NCBI RefSeq assembly: GCF_001457615.1
Contig: NZ_LN831024.1
Location: forward strand, 1,554,773-1,594,772
Direction: 5' to 3'
DNA: 40,000 nucleotides
Origin: Pseudomonas aeruginosa
GTDB lineage: Bacteria; Pseudomonadota; Gammaproteobacteria; Pseudomonadales; Pseudomonadaceae
Shown: in pieces, positions 9,560-24,298 of the stretch
Layout: each line of letters starts with the position of its first letter
Position numbering within the stretch: the stretch's first letter is position 1
The notes under the pieces: model-generated
Database searches by the model: none
What the model saw: only the letters and a program-made list of their open reading frames with translations
Told to the model about the DNA's origin: nothing
Translations under genes and position numbers: made by a program

Positions 9560-9616
9560 AGTTTTATATTTAAAACGATGTTTCATATATAAAACAAGAC
9601 AAGAGGCTTAGTCCAG

Positions 9617-10468
9617 ATGAGAGCGACGTCGTTGAGCATCCTCACTTCCGAGCATTCGCTACCTGTAGCCGCTCCTGCGGATAGCCGTCTCGAAATCGAA
9701 TTCCGCGGCGTCGCCAAGCATTTTCCGGGCCGCGGCAAAAGCGCGGCGACCCTCGCGGTGCAGGGGCTCGACCTGGCCATCCGCCGCGGCGAGGTGGTGT
9801 CCATCATCGGGCCGTCCGGTTGCGGCAAGAGCACCCTGCTGAACATGGGGGCGGGTCTCTACGCACCCAGCGAAGGCGAGGTGCGGGTCGGCGGCGAGCG
9901 GGTCAGCGGTCCGGTACGCAAGGTCTCCTTCATGTTGCAGAAGGACCTGCTGATGCCCTGGCGCAGCATTCGCCGCAACATCGAGCTGGGCCTGGAGATC
10001 GACGGTCGCGCGGCCGGCGAACGGCGCGCCATCGCCGAGGAAATGCTGGAGAAGTGTCACCTCGCCGGTTTCGCCGAGCACTATCCGTTCCAGCTTTCCG
10101 GCGGCATGCGCCAACGCGCCGCCCTGGCCCGAACCCTGGCCACCGACCCGCAGGTGCTGTTCCTCGACGAGCCGTTCTCGGCCCTCGACGCGCAGACCAA
10201 GATGATCCTCCAGCAGGACCTGGCGCGGATGCTCTGCGAGCAACGCAAGACCGCGCTGTTCATTACCCACGACCTGGTCGAGGCGATCGCCATGTCCGAT
10301 CGCATCCTGGTGATGAGCGCGCGGCCGGGCACCATCGTCGAGGAGATCGAGGTCGGCCTGCCGCTGCGCGACAACCCGCTGGAGCGCCGCAAGCTGCCGG
10401 AGATCGGGCCGCTGGTCGGGCGCCTGATGACCCTGCTGAAAGTGGGCGAGAGCGCCGAGCTGCACTGA
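9617..10468 (+). CDS. ABC transporter ATP-binding protein (NitT/TauT-type)
   Basis: Walker A GPSGCGKST, signature LSGGMRQR and Walker B LFLDEPFSALD. Confidence 0.9.
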   Translation: MRATSLSILTSEHSLPVAAPADSRLEIEFRGVAKHFPGRGKSAATLAVQGLDLAIRRGEVVSIIGPSGCGKSTLLNMGAGLYAPSEGEVRVGGERVSGPVRKVSFMLQKDLLMPWRSIRRNIELGLEIDGRAAGERRAIAEEMLEKCHLAGFAEHYPFQLSGGMRQRAALARTLATDPQVLFLDEPFSALDAQTKMILQQDLARMLCEQRKTALFITHDLVEAIAMSDRILVMSARPGTIVEEIEVGLPLRDNPLERRKLPEIGPLVGRLMTLLKVGESAELH

Positions 10469-10508
10469 TCGCCGCCTGCCGATCCGAATTCCGTTACAGG
10501 AGCCGCTG

Positions 10509-11516
10509 ATGTCCAAGTCATTGCTCAACGCCGCATTGTGCGGCGCGTTGTTCGCCGCCGGCCTGACCGTCCAGGCCGCCCCGCGGGAAGTCACCTACCT
10601 GCTGCCGGCACCGCCGAACTCGCCGGCCTTCGCACCCTGGGTGATCGCCCGGGAGAAGGGCTACTACGCCGACCTGGGCCTGAAGGTGACCTTCGTCGCC
10701 GGCAAGGGCGGGGTCGACGTGGCCAAGCAGATCGGCGCCGGCAACGCACCGGTCGGCGGCGCCATCGGCGATACGCCGATCGTGGTGCGCGCCAACGGCA
10801 TCCCGGTGAAAGCCGTGGCGGTGCTCGGTGCCGGCGGGGTGACCATGATCGCCACCGATGGCACGGCCGGTATCGACAGCGTCAAGGACCTCAAGGGCAA
10901 GACCCTGACCGTGATGTCCTACTCCGACACCACCTACTACGCCCTGCTGGCGTCGATGCGCAAGGCTGGCCTGGGCAAGTCCGACGTGGACATCCAGGCG
11001 GCCGGCCCATCCGGCGTCTGGCAACTGTTCTCCGCCGGCCGCTCGCAGGCCATGGCCGGCGTGCCGGACTGGGTGGTGAGTGCCGAGGATGCCGGCCGGC
11101 AGGTGAAGTTGCTGCCGGGCAGCGAGGTGTTCGAGAGCATGGCCCAGGCGATCCTCGCCTCGGACGAGGCCATCGAGAAGCAGCCTGAGGTGGTCGGCGG
11201 GGTGGTCAGGGCGACCCTCATGGGCATGCGCGACATCATCGCCGACCCAAGGCAGGCCGCCGCCACCTTCGCTGCCGCGGTGCCCGCCTACAAGGGCCGC
11301 GAGGCCAGCCTGGAACGGGTCCTGCGGCTCTATGTCGAGCACGTCTACGCCAACCAGCAGCCGCTCGGGCACATCGATCCGCAGCGCCTGGACAAGGTTC
11401 GCAGGTTCTACGTCAGCGAAGGCATCGTCGGCCGCGAGACGCCGCTGGACGAGCTTTACACCAACCGTTTCGTCGAGTCCGCCGACCTGACCGCGCAGCA
11501 CGGAGCCCGCCCATGA
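10509..11516 (+). CDS. Periplasmic substrate-binding protein, NMT1/THI5-like (NitT/TauT family)
   Basis: Signal peptide MSKSLLNAALCGALFAAGLTVQA-AP. Size and context fit, lying between the ATPase and the permease. Confidence 0.8.
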   Translation: MSKSLLNAALCGALFAAGLTVQAAPREVTYLLPAPPNSPAFAPWVIAREKGYYADLGLKVTFVAGKGGVDVAKQIGAGNAPVGGAIGDTPIVVRANGIPVKAVAVLGAGGVTMIATDGTAGIDSVKDLKGKTLTVMSYSDTTYYALLASMRKAGLGKSDVDIQAAGPSGVWQLFSAGRSQAMAGVPDWVVSAEDAGRQVKLLPGSEVFESMAQAILASDEAIEKQPEVVGGVVRATLMGMRDIIADPRQAAATFAAAVPAYKGREASLERVLRLYVEHVYANQQPLGHIDPQRLDKVRRFYVSEGIVGRETPLDELYTNRFVESADLTAQHGARP

Positions 11517-12289
11517 ACCTCTCCACCAGACCCTTGCTCGGCAGTCTCGCGCTGTTGTTCCTGTTCCTCGCTGCCTGGCAGTGGGGGCCCGGCCTGCTCG
11601 GCATGCCCGAGTTCGTCCTGCCGGGGCTGAGCCGGGTGGCGGCGGAGGGCGTGGCCATGTGGCACGGCGCCGGACTGCTGGAGCACACGGCGATCACCAG
11701 CCTGGAGATCGTCGTCGGTTTCGCCCTGGGCGCGCTGCTTGGCGTGAGCATCGGCGTTGCCCTCGGCCTGTCGCCGACCACCGAGGCCATGCTCTCGCCC
11801 TACATCCTGGCGCTGCAGATCGCGCCGAAGGTGGCCTTCGCCCCGCTGTTCGTGATGTGGCTGGGCTATACGGTGTACCCGAAGATCCTCATCGCCGTGC
11901 TGATCGTGTTCTTCCCGGTGATGATCAACGTGCTCTCGGCCATCCGCACCGTCGACCCGGACATGATCAACCTGGTGCGCGCGATGAGCGCCAGCCGTTG
12001 GCAGATCTTCCGCCTGGTGGAGTTCCCCTCGGCGATGGCCGCGCTGTTCTCCGGCCTGCGCATCGCCTCCACCCTGGCGGTGATCGGCGTCACCGTCGGC
12101 GAGCTGGTGGGCGGCAACAAGGGCCTCGGCTTCCTGCTGGTGGATGCCGAAGGGCAGGGCAACACCGCCGGGGTGTTCGTCGCCATCGTCATGCTCACCC
12201 TGATCGGCGTGCTCGCCTATGGCGCGGTGGTCTGGGCCGAGAAGCGCGTCCTGCATTACCTGCCGAAAGCCAACCTGGGCACGGTGTGA
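11513..12289 (+). CDS. ABC transporter permease (BPD-type inner-membrane component)
   Basis: Multiple hydrophobic helices and an EAA-like loop (MSASRWQIFRLVEFPSAMAALFSG). ATGA overlap with the upstream gene. Confidence 0.85.
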   Translation: MNLSTRPLLGSLALLFLFLAAWQWGPGLLGMPEFVLPGLSRVAAEGVAMWHGAGLLEHTAITSLEIVVGFALGALLGVSIGVALGLSPTTEAMLSPYILALQIAPKVAFAPLFVMWLGYTVYPKILIAVLIVFFPVMINVLSAIRTVDPDMINLVRAMSASRWQIFRLVEFPSAMAALFSGLRIASTLAVIGVTVGELVGGNKGLGFLLVDAEGQGNTAGVFVAIVMLTLIGVLAYGAVVWAEKRVLHYLPKANLGTV

Positions 12290-12294
12290 ACGCC

Positions 12295-13056
12295 ATGAGC
12301 CAGAACTCTCTTCTCGACGGTCGCCGCGTGCTCCTCACCGGCGGCGCCCGCGGCCTCGGCTACGCCTTCGCCGAAGCGGCGGCACGCGCCGGCGCCCGGG
12401 TGGTGATCGCCGACATCCTGGAGGAACGCGTGCAGCGCTCCGCCCGTGAACTCGCCGAGCAGGGCCTGGATATCAGCGGCCTGCCACTGGACCTGGCCGA
12501 CCCGGTTTCGATCGAGCGCTGCGTGGCCGCGGCGGTCGAGCGCCTGGGCGGTCTCGACGGCCTGGTGAACAACGCCTCCATCACCAACTCCGGCGGCAAG
12601 AGCTGCGAAGAACTGGAGATCGAGGTGTTCGACCGGGTGCTCCAGGTCAACGTGCGCGGCACCTGGCTGATGACCCGTGCCTGCCTGCCGGCGCTGCGCG
12701 AGTCCGGACGTGGCGCGGTGGTCAACCTGGCCTCCGACACCCCGCTGTGGGGCGCGCCCAACCTGCTCGCCTACAGCGCCAGCAAGGGCGCGCTGATCGC
12801 CATGACCCGCAGCCTGGCCCGCGAGCTGGGCGGCGACGGCATCACCGTCAACGCCATCGCTCCCGGACTGGTGGAGGTCGAGGCCACCGAGTACGTGCCG
12901 GCCGCCCGCCACCGGCTCTACCGCGAGCAGCGCGCGCTCCAGCGCGGCCAACAGCCGGCGGATGTCTGCGGCGCGGTGCTGTTCGCCCTTTCCGACCTTT
13001 CCCGCTTCATCACTGGACAAACCTTGCCGGTCAACGGCGGGTTCGTCATGCCCTGA
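12295..13056 (+). CDS. Short-chain dehydrogenase/reductase (SDR), 253 aa
   Basis: TGGARGLG cofactor motif, NNAS, and YSASK (YxxxK) catalytic motif. Start chosen at MSQNSLLDGRR. Confidence 0.9.
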   Translation: MSQNSLLDGRRVLLTGGARGLGYAFAEAAARAGARVVIADILEERVQRSARELAEQGLDISGLPLDLADPVSIERCVAAAVERLGGLDGLVNNASITNSGGKSCEELEIEVFDRVLQVNVRGTWLMTRACLPALRESGRGAVVNLASDTPLWGAPNLLAYSASKGALIAMTRSLARELGGDGITVNAIAPGLVEVEATEYVPAARHRLYREQRALQRGQQPADVCGAVLFALSDLSRFITGQTLPVNGGFVMP

Positions 13057-13069
13057 TCCGGAGGACTCC

Positions 13070-13600
13070 ATGACCGATCTGAACCAGAACGCCCCGAAAT
13101 CCTGGGACCGCCCCGAAGGCGCCAGCTTCGAGGAGTGGTGCAACACCCGCATCGCCCGTTACTCCACCCGCAAGTACGACTGGAACGCGCTGAAGTTCCA
13201 GGCCGACTACGACCCCAGGTTCCGCCGCGCGCAGATGCGCTACATCGGCACCGGCGGCACCGGTGTGGCCAGTGACATGAACACCATTCCGTCCGAGCAC
13301 TTCACCTTTTCCACCATGGTCATCCCGGCGGGTCACGAAGGCCCGCCGCACCTGCACATCGACGTCGAGGAAGTGTTCTTCGTCCTGCGCGGCAAGCTCA
13401 AGGTGGTGCTGGAGAAGGACGGCGAGCGCTTCGAGACCATCCTCACCGACCGCGACGTGATTTCCGTGCCGCCGGGCGTGTACCGCGAGGAGATCAACAT
13501 CGGCGACGAGGATGCGCTGATGTGCGTGATGCTCGGTGCGAAGAAGCCGATCACCCCGACCTACCCGCCGGAGCACCCTCTGGCGAGCATCAAGCGCTGA
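13070..13600 (+). CDS. Cupin-domain protein (176 aa)
   Basis: Cupin motif GHEGPPHLHIDVEEVFFVLRG plus a second-motif region PPGVYRE. GGAGGA RBS at 13059-13064. Confidence 0.75.
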   Translation: MTDLNQNAPKSWDRPEGASFEEWCNTRIARYSTRKYDWNALKFQADYDPRFRRAQMRYIGTGGTGVASDMNTIPSEHFTFSTMVIPAGHEGPPHLHIDVEEVFFVLRGKLKVVLEKDGERFETILTDRDVISVPPGVYREEINIGDEDALMCVMLGAKKPITPTYPPEHPLASIKR

Positions 13601-13608
13601 GGCCGCCG

Positions 13609-14478
13609 ATGAACATGGCGCAGACCCACACCCCCGTCCCGAACCTGCAACAGCGCTTTCCCGAGCGGCTGGTGCAACTGGCCGACGGCGCCCAGCTGGC
13701 CATCCGCGAATGCGGCCAGGGCCCGGTGGTGGTGCTGTTGCACGGCATCGGTTCGGGCTCGGCGTCCTGGCTGCATTGCGCCCAGCGCCTGGCCGCCGGC
13801 AATCGGGTGATCGCCTGGGACGCGCCGGGTTACGGCCTGTCCACGCCGCTGCCGCCGGCCCGGCCCAAGGCCTGCGACTACGCCGCGTGCCTGGAGCTGC
13901 TGCTGGATGCGCTGGGCGTGGAGAGCTGCCTGCTGGTGGGCCACTCCCTCGGCGCGCTGATGGCCACGGCCTACGCCGCCGGCATCGGCGCGGCGCGGGT
14001 GCGCCGCCTGGTGCTGCTCAGCCCGGCGCGCGGCTACGGCGCCGCCGAGCTGCGCGACAGCGGCGCCCAGGTGCGCCGCCAGCGCCTGGAGAACCTGGAG
14101 CGCTTCGGTATCGACGGCATGGCCAGCGAGCGCACCGCGCGCCTGCTCGGCCGCAACCCCAGCGAGGAGGCCCTGGCCTGGGTGCGCTGGAACATGGCGC
14201 GGCTCAACCCCGAGGGCTACCGCCAGGCCGTCGAGCTGCTCTGCGGCGACGACCTGCTGGGCAACGGGCAGCCTGCCGCTCCTTGCGAGGTGCATTGCGG
14301 CGAGGACGACGGCATCACCACGCCCGAGAGTTGCGGCGCCATCGCCCGCCAGCTCGGCGCGTCGTTCTCGTCGATTCCCGGGGCCGGCCACGCCAGCCCG
14401 ATCGAACAACCCGAAGTGGTCGCAGGACGCATCGGCCACGCGCAACGCCTCTCTCTTGAAGGAACCGCCAATGGATAA
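13609..14478 (+). CDS. Alpha/beta-fold hydrolase (289 aa)
   Basis: HGIGSG oxyanion region, nucleophile elbow GHSLGA, C-terminal GAGH. Confidence 0.85.
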   Translation: MNMAQTHTPVPNLQQRFPERLVQLADGAQLAIRECGQGPVVVLLHGIGSGSASWLHCAQRLAAGNRVIAWDAPGYGLSTPLPPARPKACDYAACLELLLDALGVESCLLVGHSLGALMATAYAAGIGAARVRRLVLLSPARGYGAAELRDSGAQVRRQRLENLERFGIDGMASERTARLLGRNPSEEALAWVRWNMARLNPEGYRQAVELLCGDDLLGNGQPAAPCEVHCGEDDGITTPESCGAIARQLGASFSSIPGAGHASPIEQPEVVAGRIGHAQRLSLEGTANG

Positions 14479-15304
14479 GTCAGACGATTCGCAAGACAAG
14501 TACATCGTGCCTGGCCTCGAACGCGGCCTGCTGCTGCTCTGCGAGTTCAGCCGGAAGGACCGTACCCTGACGGCGCCGGAGTTGGCGCGGCGCCTGAAGC
14601 TGCCGCGCTCGACCATCTTCCGCCTGCTGACCACCCTGGAGGCCATGGGCTTCGTCACCCGCAACGGCAACGAGTACCGCCTGGGCATGGCGGTGTTGCG
14701 CCTGGGCTTCGAGTACCTGGCCTCGCTGGAGCTGACCGAACTCGGCCAGCCGCTGCTGAACCGCCTGTGCGACGAGATCCGCTACCCCTGCAACCTGGTG
14801 GTGCGCGACGGCCGTTCGATCGTCTACGTGGCCAAGGTTTCGCCGTCCACCCCGCTGAGCAGCTCGGTGAACGTCGGGACCCGGTTGCCGGCCCACGCCA
14901 CGGTGCTCGGCCGCATCCTGCTGCAGGACCTGAGCCTGGGCGAGCTGCGCGAGCTGTACCCGGAGGAGCAGCTGGAGCAGTTCTCGCCGAACACCCCGCG
15001 CAGCGTGCTGGAACTCTTCGACATGGTCCAGGGCGACCGCCAGCGTGGCTTCGTCCAGGGCGAGGGGTTCTTCGAGGCGAGCATCTCCACCGTCGCGGCG
15101 CCGGTACGTGATCACAGCGGTCGCGTCATCGCGGCGATGGGGGCGACCATCGCCGCCGGGCATATCGACCCGGAACGCATCGAGGGACTGGTCAGCCGGG
15201 TGCGCAGCAGCGCCGACGAGCTGTCGTACCTGCTCGACTACCGCGCCGACGGCCAGGACAACGTTACCCCGATCTTCCGGAGTCGCCCGCATGAAACCGT
15301 ATGA
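14471..15304 (+). CDS. IclR-family transcriptional regulator (277 aa)
   Basis: N-terminal wHTH (LTAPELARRLKLPRSTIFRLLTTLEAMGFV) followed by an IclR effector domain. ATG at 14471 is preceded by AAGGAA and overlaps the hydrolase gene by 8 nt. Confidence 0.9.
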   Translation: MDKSDDSQDKYIVPGLERGLLLLCEFSRKDRTLTAPELARRLKLPRSTIFRLLTTLEAMGFVTRNGNEYRLGMAVLRLGFEYLASLELTELGQPLLNRLCDEIRYPCNLVVRDGRSIVYVAKVSPSTPLSSSVNVGTRLPAHATVLGRILLQDLSLGELRELYPEEQLEQFSPNTPRSVLELFDMVQGDRQRGFVQGEGFFEASISTVAAPVRDHSGRVIAAMGATIAAGHIDPERIEGLVSRVRSSADELSYLLDYRADGQDNVTPIFRSRPHETV

Positions 15305-16088
15305 CCTGTCCGAGGCGGTGGCGGTGGTCACCGGCGGTTCCTCCGGGATCGGCCTGGCCACGGTGGAACTGCTGCTGGAGGCAGGCGCCGCCGTGGCTTT
15401 CTGCGCTCGCGACGGCGAGCGCCTGCGTGCCGCCGAGTCCGCGCTACGCCAGCGCTTCCCCGGGGCGCGCCTGTTCGCCAGTGTCTGCGACGTGCTGGAT
15501 GCGTTGCAGGTGCGCGCCTTCGCCGAAGCCTGCGAGAGAACGCTGGGGTGCGCCAGCATCCTGGTGAACAACGCCGGCCAGGGCCGCGTCTCGACCTTCG
15601 CCGAGACCACGGACGAGGCCTGGAGCGAGGAACTGCAACTGAAGTTCTTTTCCGTCATCCACCCGGTACGCGCTTTCCTGCCGCAACTGGAAAGCCGCGC
15701 CGACGCGGCCATCGTCTGCGTCAACTCGCTGCTGGCCAGCCAGCCGGAGCCGCACATGGTGGCTACCAGCGCGGCCCGCGCCGGGGTGAAGAACCTGGTG
15801 CGCTCCATGGCCTTCGAGTTCGCGCCTAAGGGCGTACGGGTCAACGGCATCCTCATCGGCCTGGTCGAGTCCGGCCAGTGGCGGCGCCGTTTCGAAGCCC
15901 GCGAAGAGCGCGAGCTGGACTGGGCGCAATGGACCGCGCAGCTGGCGCGGAACAAGCAGATTCCCCTGGGACGCCTGGGCAAGCCGATCGAGGCGGCCCG
16001 CGCCATCCTGTTCCTCGCATCTCCCCTGTCTGCCTATACGACGGGCAGTCATATCGACGTTTCCGGAGGGTTGTCCCGTCATGCGTAA
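15291..16088 (+). CDS. Short-chain dehydrogenase/reductase (SDR), 265 aa
   Basis: TGGSSGIG, NNAG, and an atypical active-site region. Overlaps the IclR gene by 14 nt and the next gene by 8 nt. Confidence 0.85.
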   Translation: MKPYDLSEAVAVVTGGSSGIGLATVELLLEAGAAVAFCARDGERLRAAESALRQRFPGARLFASVCDVLDALQVRAFAEACERTLGCASILVNNAGQGRVSTFAETTDEAWSEELQLKFFSVIHPVRAFLPQLESRADAAIVCVNSLLASQPEPHMVATSAARAGVKNLVRSMAFEFAPKGVRVNGILIGLVESGQWRRRFEAREERELDWAQWTAQLARNKQIPLGRLGKPIEAARAILFLASPLSAYTTGSHIDVSGGLSRHA

Positions 16089-17763: not shown

Positions 17764-17773
17764 GGCTCTCGCC

Positions 17774-18577
17774 ATGCTGAATATCGTCATGATCGGCTGC
17801 GGCGCCATCGGCGCCGGCGTCCTGGAACTGTTGGAAAACGATCCGCAACTGAGGGTCGATGCGGTGATCGTTCCTCGCGACTCCGAGACCCAGGTCCGCC
17901 ATCGCCTGGCCAGCCTGCGCCGGCCGCCGCGGGTACTCAGCGCGCTGCCGGCCGGAGAGCGCCCCGATCTTCTGGTGGAGTGCGCCGGGCACCGCGCCAT
18001 CGAGCAGCACGTGCTGCCGGCGCTGGCCCAAGGCATTCCCTGCCTGGTGGTCTCGGTGGGCGCGCTGTCCGAGCCGGGCCTGGTGGAGCGCCTGGAAGTC
18101 GCGGCGCAAGCCGGAGGCAGCCGCATCGAGCTGCTGCCCGGCGCCATCGGCGCCATCGATGCGCTGTCGGCGGCCAGGGTCGGTGGCCTCGAGTCGGTGC
18201 GCTACACCGGGCGCAAGCCGGCGAGCGCCTGGCTGGGGACGCCGGGCGAGACGGTCTGCGACCTGCAGCGCCTGGAGAAGGCGCGGGTGATCTTCGACGG
18301 CAGCGCCCGCGAGGCGGCGCGGCTCTATCCGAAGAACGCCAATGTCGCCGCCACCCTGTCGCTCGCCGGCCTCGGCCTGGACCGCACCCAGGTGCGCCTG
18401 ATCGCCGACCCCGAAAGCTGCGAGAACGTGCACCAGGTGGAAGCCAGCGGCGCCTTCGGCGGCTTCGAACTGACCTTGCGTGGCAAACCGCTGGCGGCCA
18501 ACCCGAAGACATCGGCGCTGACCGTGTACAGCGTGGTCCGAGCGTTGGGCAACCACGCCCACGCGATTTCGATCTAG
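17774..18577 (+). CDS. L-aspartate dehydrogenase (NadX-like), 267 aa
   Basis: Rossmann motif IGCGAIG and a conserved C-terminal NPKTSALT..S motif. Length and position match PA3505, remembered as a characterised aspartate dehydrogenase. Confidence 0.85.
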   Translation: MLNIVMIGCGAIGAGVLELLENDPQLRVDAVIVPRDSETQVRHRLASLRRPPRVLSALPAGERPDLLVECAGHRAIEQHVLPALAQGIPCLVVSVGALSEPGLVERLEVAAQAGGSRIELLPGAIGAIDALSAARVGGLESVRYTGRKPASAWLGTPGETVCDLQRLEKARVIFDGSAREAARLYPKNANVAATLSLAGLGLDRTQVRLIADPESCENVHQVEASGAFGGFELTLRGKPLAANPKTSALTVYSVVRALGNHAHAISI

Positions 18578-18588
18578 GGACGACTACC

Positions 18589-20073: not shown

Positions 20074-20086
20074 TGAGGAAGACGCG

Positions 20087-21052
20087 ATGAGCGTATCGGG
20101 AATCGACGAAATCACCTACGGCGTGGAAGACCTGGCCACCAGCGCGCGTTTCTTCGCCGACTGGGGCCTGGCGCAGGTCGAGGCGAGCGAGGACCAGGTG
20201 GTCTTCGAAAGCCTCAACGGCTGCCGCGTGATAGTCGCGGCGCGGGACAAGCCCGGCCTGCCGCCGGCCATCGAGGAAGGCTCGACCCTGCGTGAAGTGG
20301 TTTGGGGCGTGGAGAGCGAGGCGGACCTCAAGCTGTACGCCGAGCGCATCGCCAATGATCCCGGCTTCATCGAGGGCGAGGGCCGTATCGGCTGCACCGA
20401 CCCGAACGGTCTGGCCGTGCGCTTGCAGGTCACCCGTAAACGCGACATCCAGGTGGCCTGCGGCCAGTCCAACACCTGGCAGTTCAAGGGCCGGATCAAC
20501 CAGGCCAGCCCCATCTACGAACGTGCGCAGCCCGTCGAAGTCGGCCACGTGGTGTTCTTCGTCAAGGACGTCAACGCCTGCGAACGCTTCTACCGCGAGC
20601 GCTTCGGCTTCGTCTGCTCCGATCGCTATCCGAATCGCGGCGCCTTCCTGCGTTGCGCGGAGGAGGGCGGCCACCACGACCTGTTCATGCTGCAACTGCC
20701 GCAACCGCGCGCCGGCCTGAACCACGTGGCGTTCACCGTGCGCGATATCCATGAGGTGTTCGGCGGCGGCATGCACATCGCCCGCTGCGGCTGGGATACC
20801 GAGATCGGCCCGGGTCGGCATCCGGTGTCCTCGGCGTACTTCTGGTACTTCCGGAACCCCGCCGGCGCCCTCGTCGAGTACTACGCCGACGAGGACCAAC
20901 TGACCGGCGAGTGGCAGGCCCGCGAGTTCGAACCTGGCCCTACGGTATTCGCCGAATGGGCCATCGCCGGTGGCCTGGACGGCAATACCCGGCGACAGAA
21001 AAGCGTCGAGGCACCGCAGGGCCGGTTCCTCACCGACAAACCCAGGAGTTGA
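20087..21052 (+). CDS. Two-domain VOC (glyoxalase/extradiol dioxygenase) family protein, 321 aa
   Basis: Two VOC modules. The second contains the H..H..E-type context (VGHVVFFV, GGHHDLFMLQ, LNHVAF, ALVEYY) typical of type I extradiol dioxygenases. Confidence 0.8.
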   Translation: MSVSGIDEITYGVEDLATSARFFADWGLAQVEASEDQVVFESLNGCRVIVAARDKPGLPPAIEEGSTLREVVWGVESEADLKLYAERIANDPGFIEGEGRIGCTDPNGLAVRLQVTRKRDIQVACGQSNTWQFKGRINQASPIYERAQPVEVGHVVFFVKDVNACERFYRERFGFVCSDRYPNRGAFLRCAEEGGHHDLFMLQLPQPRAGLNHVAFTVRDIHEVFGGGMHIARCGWDTEIGPGRHPVSSAYFWYFRNPAGALVEYYADEDQLTGEWQAREFEPGPTVFAEWAIAGGLDGNTRRQKSVEAPQGRFLTDKPRS

Positions 21053-21059
21053 GACGAGC

Positions 21060-21377
21060 ATGAGCGACACCTTGTTGCTGACCGTGCTGCTCCGGCACGA
21101 CCAGTCGAAGAATCTCGACGAGATCCAGGCCCGCATGAAGGCCATGGACTGGTGGGAGCGCTTTCCGGGAGAGGGCGTGGCGATCGTTTCTTGGACCGTC
21201 GCCATGGGCCTCGGCCAGATCGTCACCCTGCGCCTGCCGCCGGCCCTGCTGCCACGCGTCAACGTCGAACTGGAGCGCTCCGCCTGGGGCGTGTTCCGCA
21301 CCGAATGCTACCCGACCTACGACTTCGTCCCGGTTCGCGAAACCATCCGCGAACGGGTCCGCACTGGAGGCCAATGA
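21060..21377 (+). CDS. Small hypothetical protein (105 aa)
   Basis: ORF packed between the dioxygenase gene and the next small ORF. AGGAG lies upstream. No motif recognised. Confidence 0.6.
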   Translation: MSDTLLLTVLLRHDQSKNLDEIQARMKAMDWWERFPGEGVAIVSWTVAMGLGQIVTLRLPPALLPRVNVELERSAWGVFRTECYPTYDFVPVRETIRERVRTGGQ

Positions 21378-21378
21378 C

Positions 21379-21597
21379 ATGCAAGACCGTTACCTCGAAC
21401 CCCATCAGGCCCGTACCCGCGAGCCGAACGCCTTCGAAGACCTGCTCGGCGATTCCATCGAGCGCGCCTACGCCGCCGGCCTGCACGACCTGCCGGGGCT
21501 GCTCGGCTACCTCAACCAGGCCGGCCCGACCTGCCCGGGCGGCGGTCCCTGGACCGAGGAAGCCTACAAGACCCTGATGGCCCGCCTGGGCGCGTGA
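21379..21597 (+). CDS. Small hypothetical protein (72 aa)
   Basis: Starts 1 nt after the previous stop. GC3-rich codon usage like its neighbours. No motif recognised. Confidence 0.55.
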   Translation: MQDRYLEPHQARTREPNAFEDLLGDSIERAYAAGLHDLPGLLGYLNQAGPTCPGGGPWTEEAYKTLMARLGA

Positions 21598-21619
21598 ATT
21601 CCCCCGAGAGGAAACCGCT

Positions 21620-22639
21620 ATGAGCACCGTGAACCCTGTTGAACAGCTTCTCGCCAACGGCCTGAAGAACCTCTGGTACCCGATCTGCCCGGTGGGCTTC
21701 ATCGAGGACAAGCCGGTGTCCCTGCGCCGCCTGGGCTACAAGCTGGCCGTCTGGCGCGATACCGACGGCACCCTGCATGCCCTCGAAGACCATTGCCCGC
21801 ACCGTGGCGCGCCGCTGTCGCGCGGGGTGAACCTGGGCGACCGCCTGCAATGCCCCTACCACGGCGTGGAAGTGCGCTGCGACGGCGTTACCGCCCGCGT
21901 GCCCGGCAGCCCCGGCTGCAAGCTGGAAGGCAGCCAGGCCACGCGCTTCTTCCACATCACCGAGGCGGCCGGCGCCGTGTGGCTGTACAACTCGGCGGGC
22001 AATGTCGAGGAAGCCCCGCCGCTGGTGCTGCCCGAGCAACTGACCGACCCCGAGTTTTCCCACTTCCTCTGCTATACCGAGTGGCGCGGCGACTACCGCT
22101 ACGTGCTGGACAACGTCATGGACCCCATGCACGGCACCTACCTGCACAAGCAGTCGCACTCCATGTCCGAGGGCGAAAGCCAGGCACGCTTCGTCACCCG
22201 CGACACCGACACCGGCTTCATCTTCGAGAAGGACGGCCAGCGCGGGGTCAACTTCGACTGGACCGAATGGGCCGACACCGGGATGCACTGGATGCGCCTG
22301 GAGATTCCCTATCCGAAGACCGGCGGCCCGGGTGGCAACTTCCATATCGTCGGCAGTTACACGCCGATCGCCCGCGACCTCTGCGCGGTGTTCCACTGGC
22401 GTTGCCGGCCGCTCACCGGCTGGCAGCGTGACACCTGGCGGTTCCTCTACAGGAACCGCCTGGAGGCGCGTCACTGGGCGGTGCTGGAGCAGGACCGGGA
22501 AATGCTCGAATTCATGGAGCCGGACGCCAACCAGCGGGAGAACCTCTACCAGCACGACCTCGGCCTGGTGCGCCTGCGGCGGCACCTGAAGAACCTGGCC
22601 AAGGCCCAGCTGGAACTGATCGAGGCCCGGCAACTGTGA
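21620..22639 (+). CDS. Rieske [2Fe-2S] non-heme-iron oxygenase, alpha-only type (339 aa)
   Basis: Rieske motif CPHRGAPLS...CPYHG. Catalytic-domain His pair region DPMHGTYLH. Confidence 0.9.
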   Translation: MSTVNPVEQLLANGLKNLWYPICPVGFIEDKPVSLRRLGYKLAVWRDTDGTLHALEDHCPHRGAPLSRGVNLGDRLQCPYHGVEVRCDGVTARVPGSPGCKLEGSQATRFFHITEAAGAVWLYNSAGNVEEAPPLVLPEQLTDPEFSHFLCYTEWRGDYRYVLDNVMDPMHGTYLHKQSHSMSEGESQARFVTRDTDTGFIFEKDGQRGVNFDWTEWADTGMHWMRLEIPYPKTGGPGGNFHIVGSYTPIARDLCAVFHWRCRPLTGWQRDTWRFLYRNRLEARHWAVLEQDREMLEFMEPDANQRENLYQHDLGLVRLRRHLKNLAKAQLELIEARQL

Positions 22640-23070
22640 CCGCCGTACGCCGGATCCGCGCCGCGGCGCTACCCGACCTGCCGGATGCAAGCTGGTCCAA
22701 TGCCCTGCTGGTGGGAGAGGAGCTGGTGATGTCCGGCATGACCGCGCACCCGGCCACCCGCCAGGCCGCCGAGCGCGGCGCCGCGCTCGACGCCCATGCC
22801 CAGGCCCTGGTGGTGCTGGGCAAGGTGAAGGCGCTGCTGGAGGCGGCGGGAGGCCATGTCGGCAACCTCTACAAGCTCAACGTCTACGTCACCCGCATCG
22901 CCGACAAGGACGCTATTGGGCGCGCGCGGCAGGAGTTCTTCGCCGGCCAGGGCACTTTTCCCGCCTCCACCCTGGTCGAGGTGAGCGGCCTGGTGTTTCC
23001 CGAACTGCTGGTGGAGATCGACGCCTGGGCGCGCCTCGATATCGACCTGGCGAACTGCGACGAAGCCTGA
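22636..23070 (+). CDS. RidA/YjgF/Rut-family enamine/imine deaminase-like protein (144 aa)
   Basis: Family-typical length and a C-terminal block (PASTLVEVSGLVFPELLVEIDAWA). GTG start overlaps the Rieske stop (GTGA). Confidence 0.8.
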   Translation: MTAVRRIRAAALPDLPDASWSNALLVGEELVMSGMTAHPATRQAAERGAALDAHAQALVVLGKVKALLEAAGGHVGNLYKLNVYVTRIADKDAIGRARQEFFAGQGTFPASTLVEVSGLVFPELLVEIDAWARLDIDLANCDEA

Positions 23071-23084
23071 AAGCGAGGTAGAAG

Positions 23085-24041
23085 ATGACTCACGACAACA
23101 GACTGGCGGCCTTCGTCCATACCCTGCGCTTCGAGGCGCAGGGTATCCTCGGCGTCGAACTGCGCCCGCAGGGCGACCAGGTCTTTCCGCCATTCAGCGC
23201 CGGCGCGCATATCGACCTGCACCTGCCCAACGGCCTGGTGCGCAGCTACTCGCTGCTCAACTCGCCGGAGGACTGCGGCCGCTATGTGCTCGGCATCCTG
23301 CGTGATCGCGGCAGCCGCGGCGGCTCCGCGTTCGTCCACGATAGCCTGCGGGTCGGCATGCAATTGCAGATATCCCGGCCGCGCAACCTGTTCCCGCTGG
23401 AGGAAAACGCTGCGCACAGCGTACTGGTGGCCGGTGGCATCGGCGTGACGCCGATCTACTGCATGTTCAACCGCCTGCGTGCGCTGGGACGTTCGGTGGA
23501 ACTGCTCTACTGCGCGCGCTCGCGCCAGGAAGCCGCCTTCGTCGAAGAACTGGCCGCCAGCGATGCCGCTATCCAGCTGCATTTCGACGACGAGAAGGGC
23601 GGCCCCATGGATCTCGGCGCCTTCCTTGGCGCACGGGCGTCCACCGCGCATTTCTACTGTTGCGGGCCGACCCCGATGATCGATGCCTTCGAGACGCACT
23701 GCGAACGCCTTGGCCATCCGCATGTGCACATCGAGCGCTTCGCCGCCGCGCCCCAGGCCCCGGCGGCGCCCCAGGGCAGCTACGAAGTGCGCCTGGCGCG
23801 CAGCGGCACGAGCATCGAGGTGCCGAGCGGCAAGTCGTTGCTCGACGCCCTGCTGGAAGCTGGCGTGGTGGTCGATTGCAGTTGCCGCGAGGGCGTTTGC
23901 GGTTCCTGCGAGACCCGTGTGCTGGAAGGCGAGCCGGAGCATCGCGACGGCGTCCTGACCAAGGCGGAAAAGATCGCCAACCAGACCATGATGGTCTGCG
24001 TGTCCGGCTGCAAGGGATCGCGCCTGGTGCTCGACCTCTGA
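23085..24041 (+). CDS. Phthalate-dioxygenase-reductase-type oxidoreductase (FMN/NAD-binding plus C-terminal plant-type 2Fe-2S), 318 aa
   Basis: RSYSL flavin-binding motif, GGIGVTP NAD motif, C-terminal CREGVCGSC...C ferredoxin motif. Confidence 0.9.
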   Translation: MTHDNRLAAFVHTLRFEAQGILGVELRPQGDQVFPPFSAGAHIDLHLPNGLVRSYSLLNSPEDCGRYVLGILRDRGSRGGSAFVHDSLRVGMQLQISRPRNLFPLEENAAHSVLVAGGIGVTPIYCMFNRLRALGRSVELLYCARSRQEAAFVEELAASDAAIQLHFDDEKGGPMDLGAFLGARASTAHFYCCGPTPMIDAFETHCERLGHPHVHIERFAAAPQAPAAPQGSYEVRLARSGTSIEVPSGKSLLDALLEAGVVVDCSCREGVCGSCETRVLEGEPEHRDGVLTKAEKIANQTMMVCVSGCKGSRLVLDL

Positions 24042-24069
24042 TCCCCGGTTATTCCCGCGTTGCCTTTGG

Positions 24070-24097
24070 ACCGGCGTTTGTAACGCCGGTTTTTTTT
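24070..24097 (+). terminator. Rho-independent terminator ending the 17-gene cluster
   Basis: ACCGGCG-TTTGTAA-CGCCGGT hairpin followed by a T8 run (24090-24097). Confidence 0.85.
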
Positions 24098-24298
24098 GCC
24101 TGGGGATCGAGCCCGGCCAAGGCTGGAATAGCGTTCCGGGGGGACGAAAAGTGTCACCGTGATCTTTCTACGCACCCGCTTCGGGCGTTTTCGTTACCTT
24201 GCCAAGAGCCTGTTTCGAGGGTGAAAAGAAGTTGCGCGTTTAATATATAAACAACTGTATTTAAAGGATTTTTTTGTTTTATGAGATTGTTCTTGCAC

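What the first reader, a model, noticed from the sequence alone, without database searches (positions are those of the whole stretch)
9617..24041. 17-gene, single-strand, overlap-packed orphan catabolic cluster with no substrate assigned here
All 17 genes are co-directional. The largest intergenic gap is 40 nt, most gaps are under 25 nt, and many junctions overlap by 4, 8 or 14 nt (11513/11516, 14471/14478, 15291/15304, 16081/16088, 22636/22639). A strong terminator follows at 24070-24097. The cluster encodes a NitT/TauT-type ABC importer, 2 SDRs, a cupin, an alpha/beta hydrolase, an IclR regulator, a ThDP enzyme and an aspartate dehydrogenase homolog. It also encodes an ALDH, an extradiol-type VOC dioxygenase, two tiny unknown ORFs, a Rieske oxygenase, RidA and a PDR-type reductase. 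Together these supply all the logic of an aromatic or heterocycle pathway: uptake, hydroxylation, ring cleavage, hydrolysis, aldehyde oxidation and imine/enamine deamination. RidA together with an amino-acid dehydrogenase points to a nitrogen-bearing substrate such as an aminophenol, aminobenzoate or N-heterocycle. RidA-family 2-aminomuconate deaminases are known from aminophenol pathways. I know of no assigned substrate for the corresponding PAO1 genes (PA3498-PA3514). That is a statement from memory, not a search result.
Basis: partly seen in the sequence, partly recalled or inferred. Interest (0 to 1): 0.7.

Follow-up and report, generated by a model that had tools for sequence, protein, structure and literature searches.

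The report
Candidate kynurenic acid breakdown operon
A tightly packed 17-gene operon of Pseudomonas aeruginosa (PA3514 to PA3498), conserved in hundreds of bacterial species, probably encodes the kynurenic acid breakdown pathway, whose chemistry has been known since the 1960s but for which I found no gene assignment.

Summary
Seventeen co-directional genes (9617-24041) have gaps of at most 40 nt and five overlaps, and a strong terminator follows. The window is P. aeruginosa, and the genes are PA3514 to PA3498. The cluster is not an accident of one genome. In 65 fully visible loci from Pseudomonas and Burkholderiales, 58 carry all 11 core genes and 56 keep the same order. A Sphingomonas replicon carries the same families in shuffled order.

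No literature search found an assigned substrate. My best explanation (confidence about 0.55, inferred) is catabolism of kynurenate, the classical "quinoline pathway" of tryptophan:
- Rieske oxygenase plus reductase, SDR and extradiol dioxygenase open the benzene ring.
- A second SDR, the ThDP decarboxylase and the ALDH shorten the side chain to 5-(2-carboxyethyl)-4,6-dihydroxypicolinate.
- The cupin and the hydrolase open the pyridone ring to 2-oxoglutarate and iminoaspartate.
- Aspartate dehydrogenase reduces iminoaspartate. An optional RidA plus 105-aa protein pair hydrolyses it.

New findings: the "9544 promoter" is a conserved sigma54-type promoter. A second one drives an unclassified outer-membrane barrel gene (24510-25730). 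Both regions share an AT-rich motif. Nothing here is experimentally tested.

The parts
9544..9559 (+). sigma54-type -24/-12 promoter TGGCATGGCTTCTGCA of the operon
   Evidence: It is one of only 2 matches to TGGCAY-N5-HTGCH in the 40-kb window. The same element lies upstream of the ATPase gene in 34 of 59 related loci, including all of the closest ones. The sigma70 scan also scored this site, at 9 of 12.
9561..9595 (+). two AT-rich 16-bp palindromes (GTTTTATATTTAAAAC, GTTTCATATATAAAAC), a putative operator
   Evidence: The motif GTTTNNNATATAAAC occurs only here and at 24238, with 0 expected by chance. The strict palindrome lies near the operon start in 28 of 59 loci, against 1 match in 599 kb elsewhere. 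The binding protein is unknown; IclR is inferred.
9617..10468 (+). ABC transporter ATPase (PA3514)
   Evidence: Pfam ABC_tran. Linked to the catabolic genes in the metagenome loci.
10509..11516 (+). periplasmic binding protein, NMT1/SsuA-like (PA3513)
   Evidence: Pfam NMT1 at 5e-30. It scores below the SsuA_fam cut-off, 101 against 163.5. No close solved structure.
11513..12289 (+). ABC permease (PA3512)
   Evidence: Pfam BPD_transp_1.
12295..13056 (+). SDR 'a' (PA3511); proposed dihydrodiol dehydrogenase or C=C reductase
   Evidence: Pfam adh_short. No NCBIfam cut-off is passed. The role is inferred.
13070..13600 (+). cupin (PA3510); proposed O2-dependent pyridone ring-cleaving enzyme
   Evidence: Pfam Cupin_2. 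The best PDB matches are the quercetinase QueD at 5e-5, then oxalate oxidase, acireductone dioxygenase and 3-HAO. The H-x-H-x3-E motif is conserved, and the motif-2 His is replaced by Arg. The role is inferred.
13609..14478 (+). alpha/beta hydrolase (PA3509); proposed N-acyl-enamine (amide) hydrolase
   Evidence: The GHSLG nucleophile motif, His and Asp are conserved. PDB relatives include esterases, MCP hydrolases and N-acetylaminomethylene-succinate hydrolase 3KXP. The role is inferred.
14471..15304 (+). IclR-family regulator (PA3508)
   Evidence: Pfam HTH_IclR and IclR_C. It scores 175.6 on the PcaR/PobR subfamily model, below the 284.75 cut-off.
15291..16088 (+). SDR 'b' (PA3507), translationally coupled to the ThDP gene
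   Evidence: NCBIfam PRK07062 at 458.6 bits, above the cut-off. It matches PDB 3LF1/3LF2, an orphan structural-genomics structure. Its overlap with the ThDP gene is conserved in other loci.
16081..17763 (+). ThDP enzyme (PA3506); proposed 2-oxoacid decarboxylase
   Evidence: Three TPP domains. NCBIfam PRK07064 at 927.7 bits. The next-best named family is 5-guanidino-2-oxopentanoate decarboxylase. PDB shows only ALS-family relatives.
17774..18577 (+). L-aspartate dehydrogenase (PA3505); proposed iminoaspartate reductase
   Evidence: NCBIfam equivalog at 479 bits against a cut-off of 226. The P. aeruginosa PAO1 enzyme was characterised by Li et al. 2011, as cited in PMC5554190.
18589..20073 (+). 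aldehyde dehydrogenase (PA3504)
   Evidence: Pfam Aldedh at 1e-168. No equivalog cut-off is passed.
20087..21052 (+). two-domain VOC extradiol dioxygenase (PA3503)
   Evidence: Pfam Glyoxalase. PDB relatives are homoprotocatechuate and catechol 2,3-dioxygenases. H154, H196, H212 and E264 are conserved in 75 orthologues.
21060..21377 (+). 105-aa protein with no family (PA3502), genetically tied to RidA
   Evidence: No Pfam match even at E=10. It has 872 homologues; the 120 best listed are 75-99% identical. The AF2 model has a ferredoxin-like fold at pLDDT 82.6, and Foldseek gives only generic hits. It co-occurs with RidA: 44 loci with both, 32 with neither, 1 with RidA alone.
21379..21597 (+). 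72-aa HTH_62 protein (PA3501), always directly upstream of the Rieske gene
   Evidence: Pfam PF20552. Present in 65 of 65 loci. The AF2 model shows three helices at pLDDT 85.9, with no PDB fold match. Function unknown.
21620..22639 (+). Rieske oxygenase, VanA_C type, alpha-only (PA3500); proposed kynurenate 7,8-dioxygenase
   Evidence: Pfam Rieske and VanA_C. C59, H61, C78, H81, D164, H171 and H176 are invariant. Orthologues at 72-96% identity occur in at least 588 species genomes. PDB relatives are DdmC, SxtT, carbazole dioxygenase CarAa and OxoO.
22636..23070 (+). Rid-family protein (PA3499); proposed imine/enamine deaminase, accessory
   Evidence: Full-length match to PDB 2IG8. Pfam Ribonuc_L-PSP. 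It scores below the archetypal RidA model cut-off. Absent from 32 of 77 loci.
23085..24041 (+). reductase with NAD-binding and plant-type 2Fe-2S domains (PA3498)
   Evidence: Pfam Fer2, NAD_binding_1 and DmmA-like_N. Present in 65 of 65 loci.
24068..24100 (+). intrinsic terminator
   Evidence: Stem of 11 pairs (6 G-C), loop of 3, then a T-run.
24193..24216 (+). GTTAC-N14-GTTTC, an upstream-activator-like element
   Evidence: It is the only match in the window. It sits 105-108 nt upstream of the sigma54-type promoter in 24 of 33 Pseudomonas loci.
24238..24252 (+). AT-rich motif GTTTAATATATAAAC shared with the operon leader
24299..24314 (+). second sigma54-type promoter TGGCATGGTTAATGCT
   Evidence: Conserved in front of the orthologous gene in 33 of 38 Pseudomonas loci.
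24510..25730 (+). 406-aa putative outer-membrane beta-barrel channel, an 18th member of the unit
   Evidence: It has a signal peptide and a C-terminal ...NIGYYF. No Pfam, NCBIfam or PDB match. Orthologues at 67-83% identity lie directly after the reductase gene in 38 Pseudomonas loci.

Best explanation
The unit is an uptake-plus-catabolism system for kynurenate (4-hydroxyquinoline-2-carboxylate). This is the 'quinoline pathway' of tryptophan breakdown described biochemically in Pseudomonas in the 1960s.

Proposed route. Enzyme families are shown by the tool results. Substrate assignments are inferred.
1. The outer-membrane barrel and the ABC importer take up kynurenate.
2. The Rieske oxygenase PA3500 with reductase PA3498 makes the 7,8-dihydrodiol (EC 1.14.99.2).
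3. One SDR re-aromatises it to 7,8-dihydroxykynurenate (EC 1.3.1.18).
4. The VOC dioxygenase PA3503 cleaves the 8,8a bond (EC 1.13.11.10). The product is 5-(3-carboxy-3-oxopropenyl)-4,6-dihydroxypicolinate.
5. The other SDR reduces the side-chain double bond.
6. The ThDP enzyme PA3506 decarboxylates the 2-oxoacid to the formylethyl compound.
7. The ALDH PA3504 oxidises that to 5-(2-carboxyethyl)-4,6-dihydroxypicolinate.
8. My own extension: the cupin PA3510 oxygenatively opens the 4-hydroxy-2-pyridone ring at C4-C5.
9. The alpha/beta hydrolase PA3509 splits the resulting N-acyl enamine into 2-oxoglutarate and 2-aminofumarate/iminoaspartate.
10. Aspartate dehydrogenase PA3505 reduces iminoaspartate to L-aspartate, which saves the nitrogen. 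Where present, RidA PA3499 with the 105-aa protein PA3502 hydrolyses it to oxaloacetate and ammonia.

Regulation: transcription starts at a sigma54-type promoter. It is probably gated by the IclR protein at the AT-rich palindromes.
For: Gene set and linkage:
- Eleven core genes co-occur in 58 of 65 fully visible loci and are collinear in 56. They recur in shuffled order in Sphingomonas. The ABC importer is always followed by the catabolic genes in SBP-anchored metagenome loci.

Fit to the classical pathway:
- Each of the six classical steps has one candidate protein of an expected family. That includes the unusual pair of a 2-oxoacid decarboxylase and an aldehyde dehydrogenase after ring cleavage.
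- The intermediates 7,8-dihydroxykynurenate, 5-(3'-carboxy-3'-oxopropyl)-4,6-dihydroxypicolinate and 5-(2'-carboxyethyl)-4,6-dihydroxypicolinate are listed tryptophan-pathway compounds.
- Carbon bookkeeping works. C10 gives CO2, 2-oxoglutarate (C5) and a C4 unit carrying the nitrogen (inference).
- Pseudomonads convert kynurenate to glutamate, alanine and organic acids (review PMC11354673 citing Horibata 1961).

Individual proteins:
- The VOC protein keeps the extradiol catalytic residues, and the Rieske protein keeps its ligands.
- The cupin's nearest solved relatives are C-C cleaving dioxygenases.
- The hydrolase is related to, among others, the enamide hydrolase of vitamin B6 breakdown.
- PA3505 is an aspartate dehydrogenase by the equivalog model, and the PAO1 enzyme has been characterised.
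- Rid-family deaminase and AspDH-family reductase are documented alternative fates of an enamine dicarboxylate in tryptophan catabolism.

Accessory genes in other taxa:
- TctC receptors and MFS transporters point to a carboxylate substrate.
- A class A flavin hydroxylase in 20 of 80 loci could be an entry point for xanthurenate.
- A molybdenum hydroxylase near 5 Variovorax loci could be an entry point for quinaldate.

Acinetobacter baumannii:
- It grows on kynurenic acid.
- It has neighbouring, co-induced genes for an alpha/beta hydrolase (A1S_0954), aspartate dehydrogenase, ALDH and an 'acetolactate synthase' (A1S_0956 to A1S_0958).

Literature: no paper assigning genes to this pathway was found.
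Against: - There is no experimental link between these genes and kynurenate.
- Every step assignment is at family level. Only the aspartate dehydrogenase passes a function-named curated model.
- The sequence of classical steps comes partly from my memory of KEGG and the 1960s papers. Only three compound names and the end products were confirmed in held papers.
- Steps 8-10 are my own chemical inference. The cupin lacks the usual motif-2 histidine.
- VanA-type Rieske enzymes are often monooxygenases or demethylases. The dihydrodiol chemistry is assumed.
- No kynurenine-forming genes recur in the flanks.
- P. aeruginosa is reported to excrete kynurenate.
- Other bicyclic N-heteroaromatic acids would fit most of the same logic.
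- The A. baumannii cluster could not be inspected directly.
Confidence: 0.55

Rival explanations
1. The pathway logic is the same but the natural substrate is different. It would be another bicyclic or substituted N-heteroaromatic or amino-aromatic carboxylate. Candidates are xanthurenate, quinaldate, another hydroxyquinoline carboxylate, or an aminophthalate-type compound. Its breakdown would also leave a 2-oxoacid side chain and a C4 imino-dicarboxylate.
For: All family-level evidence is shared with the main explanation. The optional flavin hydroxylase and the molybdenum hydroxylase show that related compounds feed in. No sequence feature pins the Rieske specificity. Its nearest solved relatives are DdmC, SxtT, CarAa and OxoO, at only 1e-7 to 4e-21.
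Against: I know of no other described pathway that needs exactly this set: dihydrodiol dehydrogenase, extradiol cleavage, C=C reduction, 2-oxoacid decarboxylation, aldehyde oxidation, and an aspartate-forming end. The kynurenate route does.
Confidence: 0.25
2. The cluster catabolises an aromatic non-proteinogenic amino acid, possibly kynurenine itself. The aspartate-dehydrogenase homologue would deaminate the amino acid, the ThDP enzyme would decarboxylate the 2-oxoacid, and the ALDH would oxidise the aldehyde (an Ehrlich-type module). The Rieske, VOC and hydrolase proteins would then degrade the ring. A variant has the dehydrogenase convert kynurenine to the dioxo acid that cyclises to kynurenate.
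For: The ThDP, AspDH and ALDH genes are adjacent in almost all loci. The ThDP enzyme's nearest named family is a 2-oxoacid decarboxylase of an amino-acid pathway. AspDH-family enzymes can evolve new substrates.
Against: PA3505 passes the aspartate dehydrogenase equivalog model, and an aspartate dehydrogenase from PAO1 has been characterised. This reading leaves the cupin, the second SDR and RidA without roles. The transporters are not of amino-acid type.
Confidence: 0.1
3. An aminophenol or aminobenzoate meta-cleavage pathway of the amn/nbz type, with RidA as 2-aminomuconate deaminase.
For: A Rid-family gene sits next to the oxygenase genes. Rid-family 2-aminomuconate deaminases exist.
Against: There is no LigB-type aminophenol dioxygenase, 4-oxalocrotonate decarboxylase, hydratase or aldolase in the cluster. 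RidA is dispensable: it is absent from 32 of 77 loci that keep everything else. The ThDP enzyme and the aspartate dehydrogenase would be unexplained.
Confidence: 0.05
4. The cluster is a chance juxtaposition of unrelated functions: a sulfonate or nitrate-type importer, NAD-biosynthetic nadX, and a stray aromatic oxygenase.
For: The importer family is best known for sulfonates, and AspDH for NAD synthesis.
Against: Collinearity holds across gamma- and betaproteobacteria, and the set recurs shuffled in an alphaproteobacterium. The binding protein fails the SsuA cut-off. There is no nadA or nadC nearby. Distant members are co-regulated.
Confidence: 0.02

Closest known systems
Classical kynurenate ('quinoline') pathway of Pseudomonas: EC 1.14.99.2, 1.3.1.18, 1.13.11.10 and the dihydroxypicolinate intermediates
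   Same: The number and chemical type of steps match the enzyme families encoded here one to one. The reported end products, glutamate and alanine, fit 2-oxoglutarate plus an aspartate-type C4 unit.
   Different: That pathway is defined by enzyme activities and intermediates. I found no genes assigned to it, so homology-based membership cannot be tested. The steps beyond 5-(2-carboxyethyl)-4,6-dihydroxypicolinate are my proposal.
Alpha-only Rieske oxygenases with a one-protein reductase acting on aromatic acids and N-heterocycles (VanAB, phthalate dioxygenase, dicamba demethylase DdmC, carbazole CarAa, 2-oxoquinoline 8-monooxygenase OxoOR)
   Same: Rieske and VanA_C domains, no beta subunit, conserved ligands, and an adjacent reductase with NAD-binding and 2Fe-2S domains.
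   Different: The relation to any characterised member is distant; the best is DdmC at 4e-21 over the N-terminal half. It is always preceded by a 72-aa HTH_62 protein, which as far as I know is not described for those systems.
Pyridine-ring pathways in which an oxygenase opens the ring and an alpha/beta hydrolase splits the N-acyl product (nicotinate NicX/NicD, vitamin B6 MHPC oxygenase and AAMS hydrolase); recalled from memory
   Same: An oxygen-dependent ring opener is followed by an alpha/beta hydrolase. The hydrolase here is distantly related to AAMS hydrolase 3KXP.
   Different: The proposed ring opener here is a small cupin, not NicX or a flavoprotein. The product would be iminoaspartate rather than formate, maleamate or acetate.
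2-aminomuconate disposal in tryptophan catabolism (bacterial and fungal Rid-family deaminase; metazoan ASPDH as 2-aminomuconate reductase)
   Same: The same two protein families deal with an unstable enamine/imine dicarboxylate, one by hydrolysis and one by NAD(P)H reduction.
   Different: Here both are encoded in one cluster. The reductase is universal and the deaminase optional. The proposed substrate is the C4 iminoaspartate, not the C6 2-aminomuconate.
Arginine transaminase pathway module (AruI 2-oxoacid decarboxylase plus an aldehyde dehydrogenase); recalled from memory
   Same: A ThDP decarboxylase of the same broad family is followed by an ALDH that shortens a 2-oxoacid by one carbon.
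   Different: The score is below that family's cut-off, 250 against 500. The context is aromatic ring-fission products, not arginine.

Membership tests
Kynurenate (quinoline-pathway) catabolic system | NAD(P)H- and O2-dependent kynurenate 7,8-hydroxylase forming a dihydrodiol | not testable with these tools
   A two-component Rieske oxygenase of a suitable class is present. Its substrate is unknown. I found no reference sequence for EC 1.14.99.2.
Kynurenate (quinoline-pathway) catabolic system | NAD-dependent dihydrodiol dehydrogenase and Fe(II) extradiol dioxygenase | tested here: inconclusive
   Two SDRs are present, and a VOC protein with conserved H154, H196, H212 and E264. The family level is met. 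Specificity is untested.
Kynurenate (quinoline-pathway) catabolic system | Side-chain reduction, 2-oxoacid decarboxylation and aldehyde oxidation to 5-(2-carboxyethyl)-4,6-dihydroxypicolinate | tested here: inconclusive
   An SDR, a ThDP enzyme and an ALDH are adjacent and conserved. The intermediates are confirmed as named compounds. The activities are untested.
Kynurenate (quinoline-pathway) catabolic system | Growth on, or induction by, kynurenate that depends on these genes | not testable with these tools
   There is only indirect literature evidence. A. baumannii grows on kynurenate and has neighbouring, co-induced alpha/beta hydrolase, AspDH, ALDH and ThDP genes.
Alpha-only (class IA-like) Rieske oxygenase system | CxH...CxxH Rieske motif, His-His-Asp iron site, VanA_C catalytic domain, no beta subunit, and a reductase with NAD-binding and 2Fe-2S domains | tested here: met
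   Pfam Rieske and VanA_C; Fer2 and NAD_binding_1 in the neighbouring gene. C59, H61, C78, H81, D164, H171 and H176 are invariant. No beta-subunit gene occurs in any locus.
Type I extradiol dioxygenase (VOC superfamily) | Two-domain VOC fold with a 2-His-1-Glu iron site and a catalytic His in the C-terminal domain | tested here: met
   Conservation in 75 orthologues. It scores below all named equivalog cut-offs, with HpaD at 70.9 against 321, so it is a new subfamily.
2-aminophenol / 2-aminomuconate (amn, nbz) pathway | LigB-type aminophenol dioxygenase, aminomuconate semialdehyde dehydrogenase and deaminase, then 4-oxalocrotonate decarboxylase, hydratase and aldolase | tested here: not met
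   No LigB-type, decarboxylase, hydratase or aldolase domains occur among the 17 proteins. The Rid gene is optional.
L-aspartate dehydrogenase (NadX) | Sequence membership | tested here: met
   NF009827 at 479 bits against a cut-off of 226. The PAO1 enzyme has been characterised.
L-aspartate dehydrogenase (NadX) | NAD-biosynthetic context (with nadA/nadC) | tested here: not met
   In all loci the neighbours are the ThDP enzyme and the ALDH of this cluster. No quinolinate synthase is in the window.
Sulfonate/taurine/nitrate (NitT/TauT) ABC importers | A binding protein that belongs to a substrate-defined subfamily | tested here: not met
   General NMT1 fold, yes. SsuA_fam scores 101.2, below the 163.5 cut-off. 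The best PDB match is only 2e-8. The transporter is swapped for TctC or MFS types in other taxa.
PcaR/PobR/PcaU subfamily of IclR regulators | TIGR02431 membership | tested here: not met
   It scores 175.6, below the 284.75 cut-off. It is a general IclR family member.
Archetypal RidA | TIGR00004 / RidA-subfamily membership | tested here: not met
   It scores 40.8, below the 106.25 cut-off. It is a Rid-superfamily member by Pfam and by structure 2IG8.
sigma54-dependent promoter | GG-N10-GC element at the right distance, conserved in orthologous positions | tested here: met
sigma54-dependent promoter | A cognate enhancer-binding protein | tested here: not met
   No AAA+ activator is in the cluster. 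No GAFTGA-containing ORF occurs in 5 kb upstream in 20 loci. The activator may be encoded elsewhere.

The most novel reading that the evidence does not exclude
PA3514-PA3498 plus the barrel gene encode the complete kynurenate pathway, which I believe has no gene assignment, and it contains new enzymology. That enzymology would include a small cupin that oxygenatively opens a 4-hydroxy-2-pyridone ring. It would include an aspartate dehydrogenase working physiologically in reverse, as an iminoaspartate trap that turns ring nitrogen directly into aspartate. It would also include two unclassified small proteins as obligatory partners of the Rieske oxygenase (HTH_62) and of the Rid deaminase (105 aa). 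Expression would be under sigma54 control. The system would then let P. aeruginosa, and probably A. baumannii, use a host tryptophan metabolite as a carbon and nitrogen source.
Probability: 0.4. Interest if true: 0.8.

Novelty: new variant of a known kind. Interest (0 to 1): 0.66.

Why it matters
- Kynurenic acid is an abundant, bioactive tryptophan metabolite of animals, plants and microbes. Its bacterial breakdown was worked out chemically more than 60 years ago. As far as I know, the three EC-numbered enzymes have no sequences.
- A gene assignment would give those enzymes sequences and give 17 'probable' or 'hypothetical' PAO1 genes a function.
- It would also explain two orphan structural-genomics structures, 2IG8 and 3LF1.
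- It would explain why an 'NAD-biosynthetic' aspartate dehydrogenase sits in a catabolic operon in hundreds of species.
- It would make kynurenate consumption by opportunistic pathogens directly testable with existing mutant libraries.

Tried and rejected
Literature:
- Searches on all PA3498-PA3514 tags found only omics lists, one intergenic mutation and one in-silico network paper, with no function.
- 'DUF3303' found no papers.
- Combinations of aspartate dehydrogenase, Rieske, thiamine and IclR gave nothing relevant.
- Searches for a published kynurenate gene cluster found none.
- The primary paper on A. baumannii growth on kynurenate is not held.

Structures:
- No solved structure is close to the Rieske, VOC, binding protein, cupin, hydrolase or ThDP proteins.
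- The fold search for the 105-aa protein gave only generic ferredoxin-like hits with TM below 0.52.
- The fold search for HTH_62 gave no match.

Flanks and regulators:
- Recurrent flanking gene families in 80 loci showed no kynurenine-forming genes.
- No enhancer-binding protein gene lies near the operon.

Hypotheses considered and dropped:
- Sulfonate catabolism (cysteate to sulfopyruvate to sulfoacetaldehyde). The binding protein fails the SsuA cut-off, other taxa use TctC or MFS transporters, and there is no desulfonating enzyme.
- Vitamin B6, picolinate or nicotinate pathways, because the enzyme sets differ.
- The aminophenol pathway (see the membership test).
- The sigma70 reading of the 9544 site. 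It scores only 9 of 12, at the level expected by chance (1 found, 1.1 expected). The sigma54 reading, by contrast, is conserved across species.

Full report
**Observation**

The window is high-GC. A frame-by-frame GC3 plot shows unbroken + strand coding from 9617 to 24041. Inspection of start codons gives 17 genes.
- Gaps are 40, 5, 13, 8, 10, 11, 13, 7, 1, 22 and 14 nt.
- A terminator follows at 24068-24092 plus a T-run, with 11 stem pairs.

Ten proteins have exact matches in P. aeruginosa. PDB 2IG8 ('hypothetical protein PA3499') matches gene 16 over its full length, and PDB 3LF1 (Q9HYA2) matches gene 8. The genes are therefore PA3514 (first) to PA3498 (last).

**Is it one unit?**

I anchored on the Rieske protein. 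Close orthologues (72-96% identity) occur in at least 588 species genomes. I compared the 17 proteins with the 80 best loci by tblastn.
- Of 65 loci with a full 10 kb on both sides, 58 contain all 11 core genes: cupin, hydrolase, IclR, SDRb, ThDP, AspDH, ALDH, VOC, HTH_62, Rieske and reductase.
- Of these, 56 keep the same order and strand. They span Pseudomonas and Burkholderiales (Variovorax, Herbaspirillum, Noviherbaspirillum, Paraburkholderia, Pandoraea, Acidovorax).
- The apparent losses are mostly genes pushed out of the 10-kb range by insertions.

A Sphingomonas replicon has the same families in a different order. It reads ThDP-AspDH-ALDH-IclR-p105-RidA, then an MFS gene, then HTH_62-Rieske-IclR-VOC-cupin-hydrolase-SDR-SDR.

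I then anchored on the binding protein in metagenome contigs. Wherever enough sequence is present, the ABC importer is followed by SDRa-cupin-hydrolase-IclR-SDRb-ThDP, down to 57% identity of the binding protein.

A published RNA-seq reports PA3514, PA3510 and PA3504 falling together.

**Variable parts**

- The 105-aa protein and the Rid protein are present or absent together: 44 loci have both, 32 have neither, and 1 has RidA alone. They are adjacent in loci where the order differs.
- Some loci insert a TctC receptor and/or a class A flavin hydroxylase between the VOC and HTH_62 genes. The hydroxylase's nearest families are 3-hydroxybenzoate 6-hydroxylase, salicylate hydroxylase and HpxO, all below cut-off.
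- Five Variovorax loci have a molybdenum hydroxylase nearby.
- In other taxa the transporter is an MFS, a TctC receptor or a TonB-dependent receptor.

**What each protein is**

- Only three proteins pass a curated NCBIfam cut-off. These are SDRb (PRK07062), the ThDP enzyme (PRK07064) and aspartate dehydrogenase (NF009827). The first two names are uninformative.
- The Rieske protein has invariant C59/H61/C78/H81 and D164/H171/H176. It is only distantly related to DdmC, SxtT, CarAa and OxoO.
- The VOC protein keeps H154, H196, H212 and E264 in 75 orthologues, which is the type I extradiol signature.
- The cupin keeps H-x-H-x3-E but has Arg in place of the motif-2 His. Its nearest solved relatives are the quercetinase QueD, oxalate oxidase, acireductone dioxygenase and 3-hydroxyanthranilate dioxygenase.
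- The hydrolase has the Ser-His-Asp set. Its relatives are esterases, MCP hydrolases and the enamide hydrolase of vitamin B6 catabolism.
- The ThDP enzyme's nearest named family is a 2-oxoacid decarboxylase.
- An aspartate dehydrogenase from P. aeruginosa PAO1 has been characterised.

**Mechanism**

No search found a substrate for these genes. The gene set maps one to one onto the classical kynurenate pathway:
1. NAD(P)H- and O2-dependent 7,8-dihydroxylation
2. diol dehydrogenation
3. extradiol 8,8a cleavage
4. reduction of the oxopropenyl side chain
5. decarboxylation to the formylethyl compound
6. oxidation to 5-(2-carboxyethyl)-4,6-dihydroxypicolinate

The step order is from my memory of KEGG map00380 and the Hayaishi-laboratory papers. 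Three of the compound names appear in held papers as tryptophan-pathway metabolites. A 2024 review states that pseudomonads convert kynurenate to glutamate, alanine and organic acids.

The decarboxylase-plus-ALDH pair after ring fission is unusual for aromatic pathways. It is exactly what this route needs.

For the remaining genes I propose the following, as inference:
- The cupin cleaves the C4-C5 bond of the 4-hydroxy-2-pyridone ring.
- The hydrolase splits the N-(2-oxoglutaryl) enamine.
- The products are 2-oxoglutarate and 2-aminofumarate/iminoaspartate.
- Aspartate dehydrogenase reduces iminoaspartate to aspartate.
- The optional Rid and 105-aa pair hydrolyses it to oxaloacetate and ammonia.

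The carbon count closes: 10 = 1 + 5 + 4. A 2026 preprint shows that a Rid-family deaminase and an AspDH-family reductase are alternative solutions for 2-aminomuconate in tryptophan catabolism. That is a close precedent.

The optional flavin hydroxylase could admit xanthurenate, and the molybdenum hydroxylase could admit quinaldate. Both are inferences.

Independent hint: A. baumannii grows on kynurenic acid. It has neighbouring, co-induced genes for an alpha/beta hydrolase (A1S_0954), aspartate dehydrogenase, ALDH and an 'acetolactate synthase' (A1S_0956 to A1S_0958). I could not inspect that locus.

**Regulation**

- The window has only two such matches. The second, at 24299, precedes the gene after the terminator.
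- The element is conserved upstream of the importer gene in 34 of 59 related loci. It is conserved upstream of the downstream gene in 33 of 38 Pseudomonas loci.
- In the latter case it comes with a GTAC-type element, GTTAC-N14-GTTYC, 105-108 nt upstream in 24 of 33 loci.
- A 16-bp AT-rich palindrome (consensus GTTTCATATATGAAAC) marks the operon start in 28 of 59 loci, against one match in 599 kb elsewhere.
- The window has two copies just downstream of the promoter and a related motif before the downstream gene.
- No enhancer-binding protein is encoded nearby. This remains unexplained.

The downstream gene (24510-25730) encodes a 406-aa protein with a signal peptide and a C-terminal ...GYYF. 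It has no Pfam, NCBIfam or PDB match. Its orthologues follow the reductase gene in 38 Pseudomonas loci. I count it as an 18th member, a putative outer-membrane channel.

**The two small proteins**

- The 105-aa protein has 872 homologues, and the 120 best listed are 75-99% identical. It has a confident ferredoxin-like model, but only generic structural neighbours.
- HTH_62 is a three-helix protein with a conserved N-terminal tail and no structural match.
- Their roles are unknown. Their genetic links are to RidA and to the Rieske oxygenase respectively.

**Comparison and novelty**

This is an aromatic or heterocycle catabolic operon, which is a known kind. Several features set it apart:
- It contains an aspartate dehydrogenase and a ThDP decarboxylase.
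- It carries two unclassified conserved small proteins and an unclassified barrel protein.
- It has sigma54 promoters.
- It fits a pathway for which I found no genes.

I rate it a new variant of a known kind. The substrate assignment is a hypothesis (confidence about 0.55). The broader claim is stronger, at about 0.8. That claim is an N-heteroaromatic acid pathway ending in an imino-dicarboxylate.

**Caveats**

- Nothing was tested experimentally.
- The assignments are at family level.
- Part of the pathway knowledge is from memory.
- A subscription-journal paper outside the searchable library could already describe this cluster.

Noticed in passing
window 87-9104: The upstream neighbours are an outer-membrane efflux protein (OEP), a haem-oxygenase-like protein, two adenylosuccinate-lyase-like lyases and a methyltransferase. 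From memory this is the MexPQ-OpmE end and the fluopsin C (flc, PA3515-PA3519) gene cluster. It appears unrelated to the finding.
   Followed up: partly
window 24510-25730: A 406-aa protein with a signal peptide and a C-terminal aromatic motif. It has no match in Pfam, NCBIfam or PDB. It is conserved after the cluster in 38 Pseudomonas species and has its own sigma54-type promoter. This is an unclassified outer-membrane barrel family.
   Followed up: yes
window 9357-9372: A perfect 7-bp inverted repeat, GGAGCAATGTTGCTCC, about 175 nt upstream of the operon promoter. The terminator scan flagged it. It could be an activator site or the terminator of the upstream unit.
   Followed up: no
L118, L119, L128, L129, L135 (upstream of the importer gene): Betaproteobacterial-type loci carry GGTGCA...GCACC repeats upstream of the sigma54-type promoter. 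From memory these resemble NtrC sites, which would mean nitrogen control.
   Followed up: no
L050, L053, L055, L057, L059, about 4-8 kb after the reductase gene, minus strand: A molybdenum hydroxylase large subunit (Ald_Xan_dh_C, MoCoBD_1/2) with an unannotated ~278-aa neighbouring protein, next to the cluster in Variovorax. It is a candidate quinaldate-type hydroxylase.
   Followed up: partly
window 15291-16088 and 22636-23070: Two proteins of the cluster already have structural-genomics crystal structures with no assigned function: 3LF1/3LF2 for PA3507 and 2IG8 for PA3499.
   Followed up: yes
window 26080-32008, minus strand: Endonuclease III (nth) and Rnf electron-transport genes. The 967-aa RnfC-like ORF has a long Ala/Glu/Lys/Arg-rich C-terminal extension. 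That extension probably explains the extreme AT skew and 75% GC at 28-30 kb.
   Followed up: partly
window 2001-3000: A GC dip to 0.53 between the efflux gene and the haem-oxygenase-like gene.
   Followed up: no
L026 (Gordonia sp. record) and L028 (Pantoea sp. record): These records hold Pseudomonas-like copies of the cluster, with 77% identity of the Rieske protein and the same order as the P. putida-group loci. This suggests mislabelled or contaminated assemblies, or recent transfer.
   Followed up: no
P. fluorescens-type loci, 5' leaders of both the operon and the barrel gene (L088-L116; L007-L025): Both transcripts would begin with a shared conserved stretch (...CGTATCACCTATAAAACAG / ...GCCGTATCACCTACGAAACAG) downstream of the -12 element. 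This may be a second operator or an RNA element.
   Followed up: no
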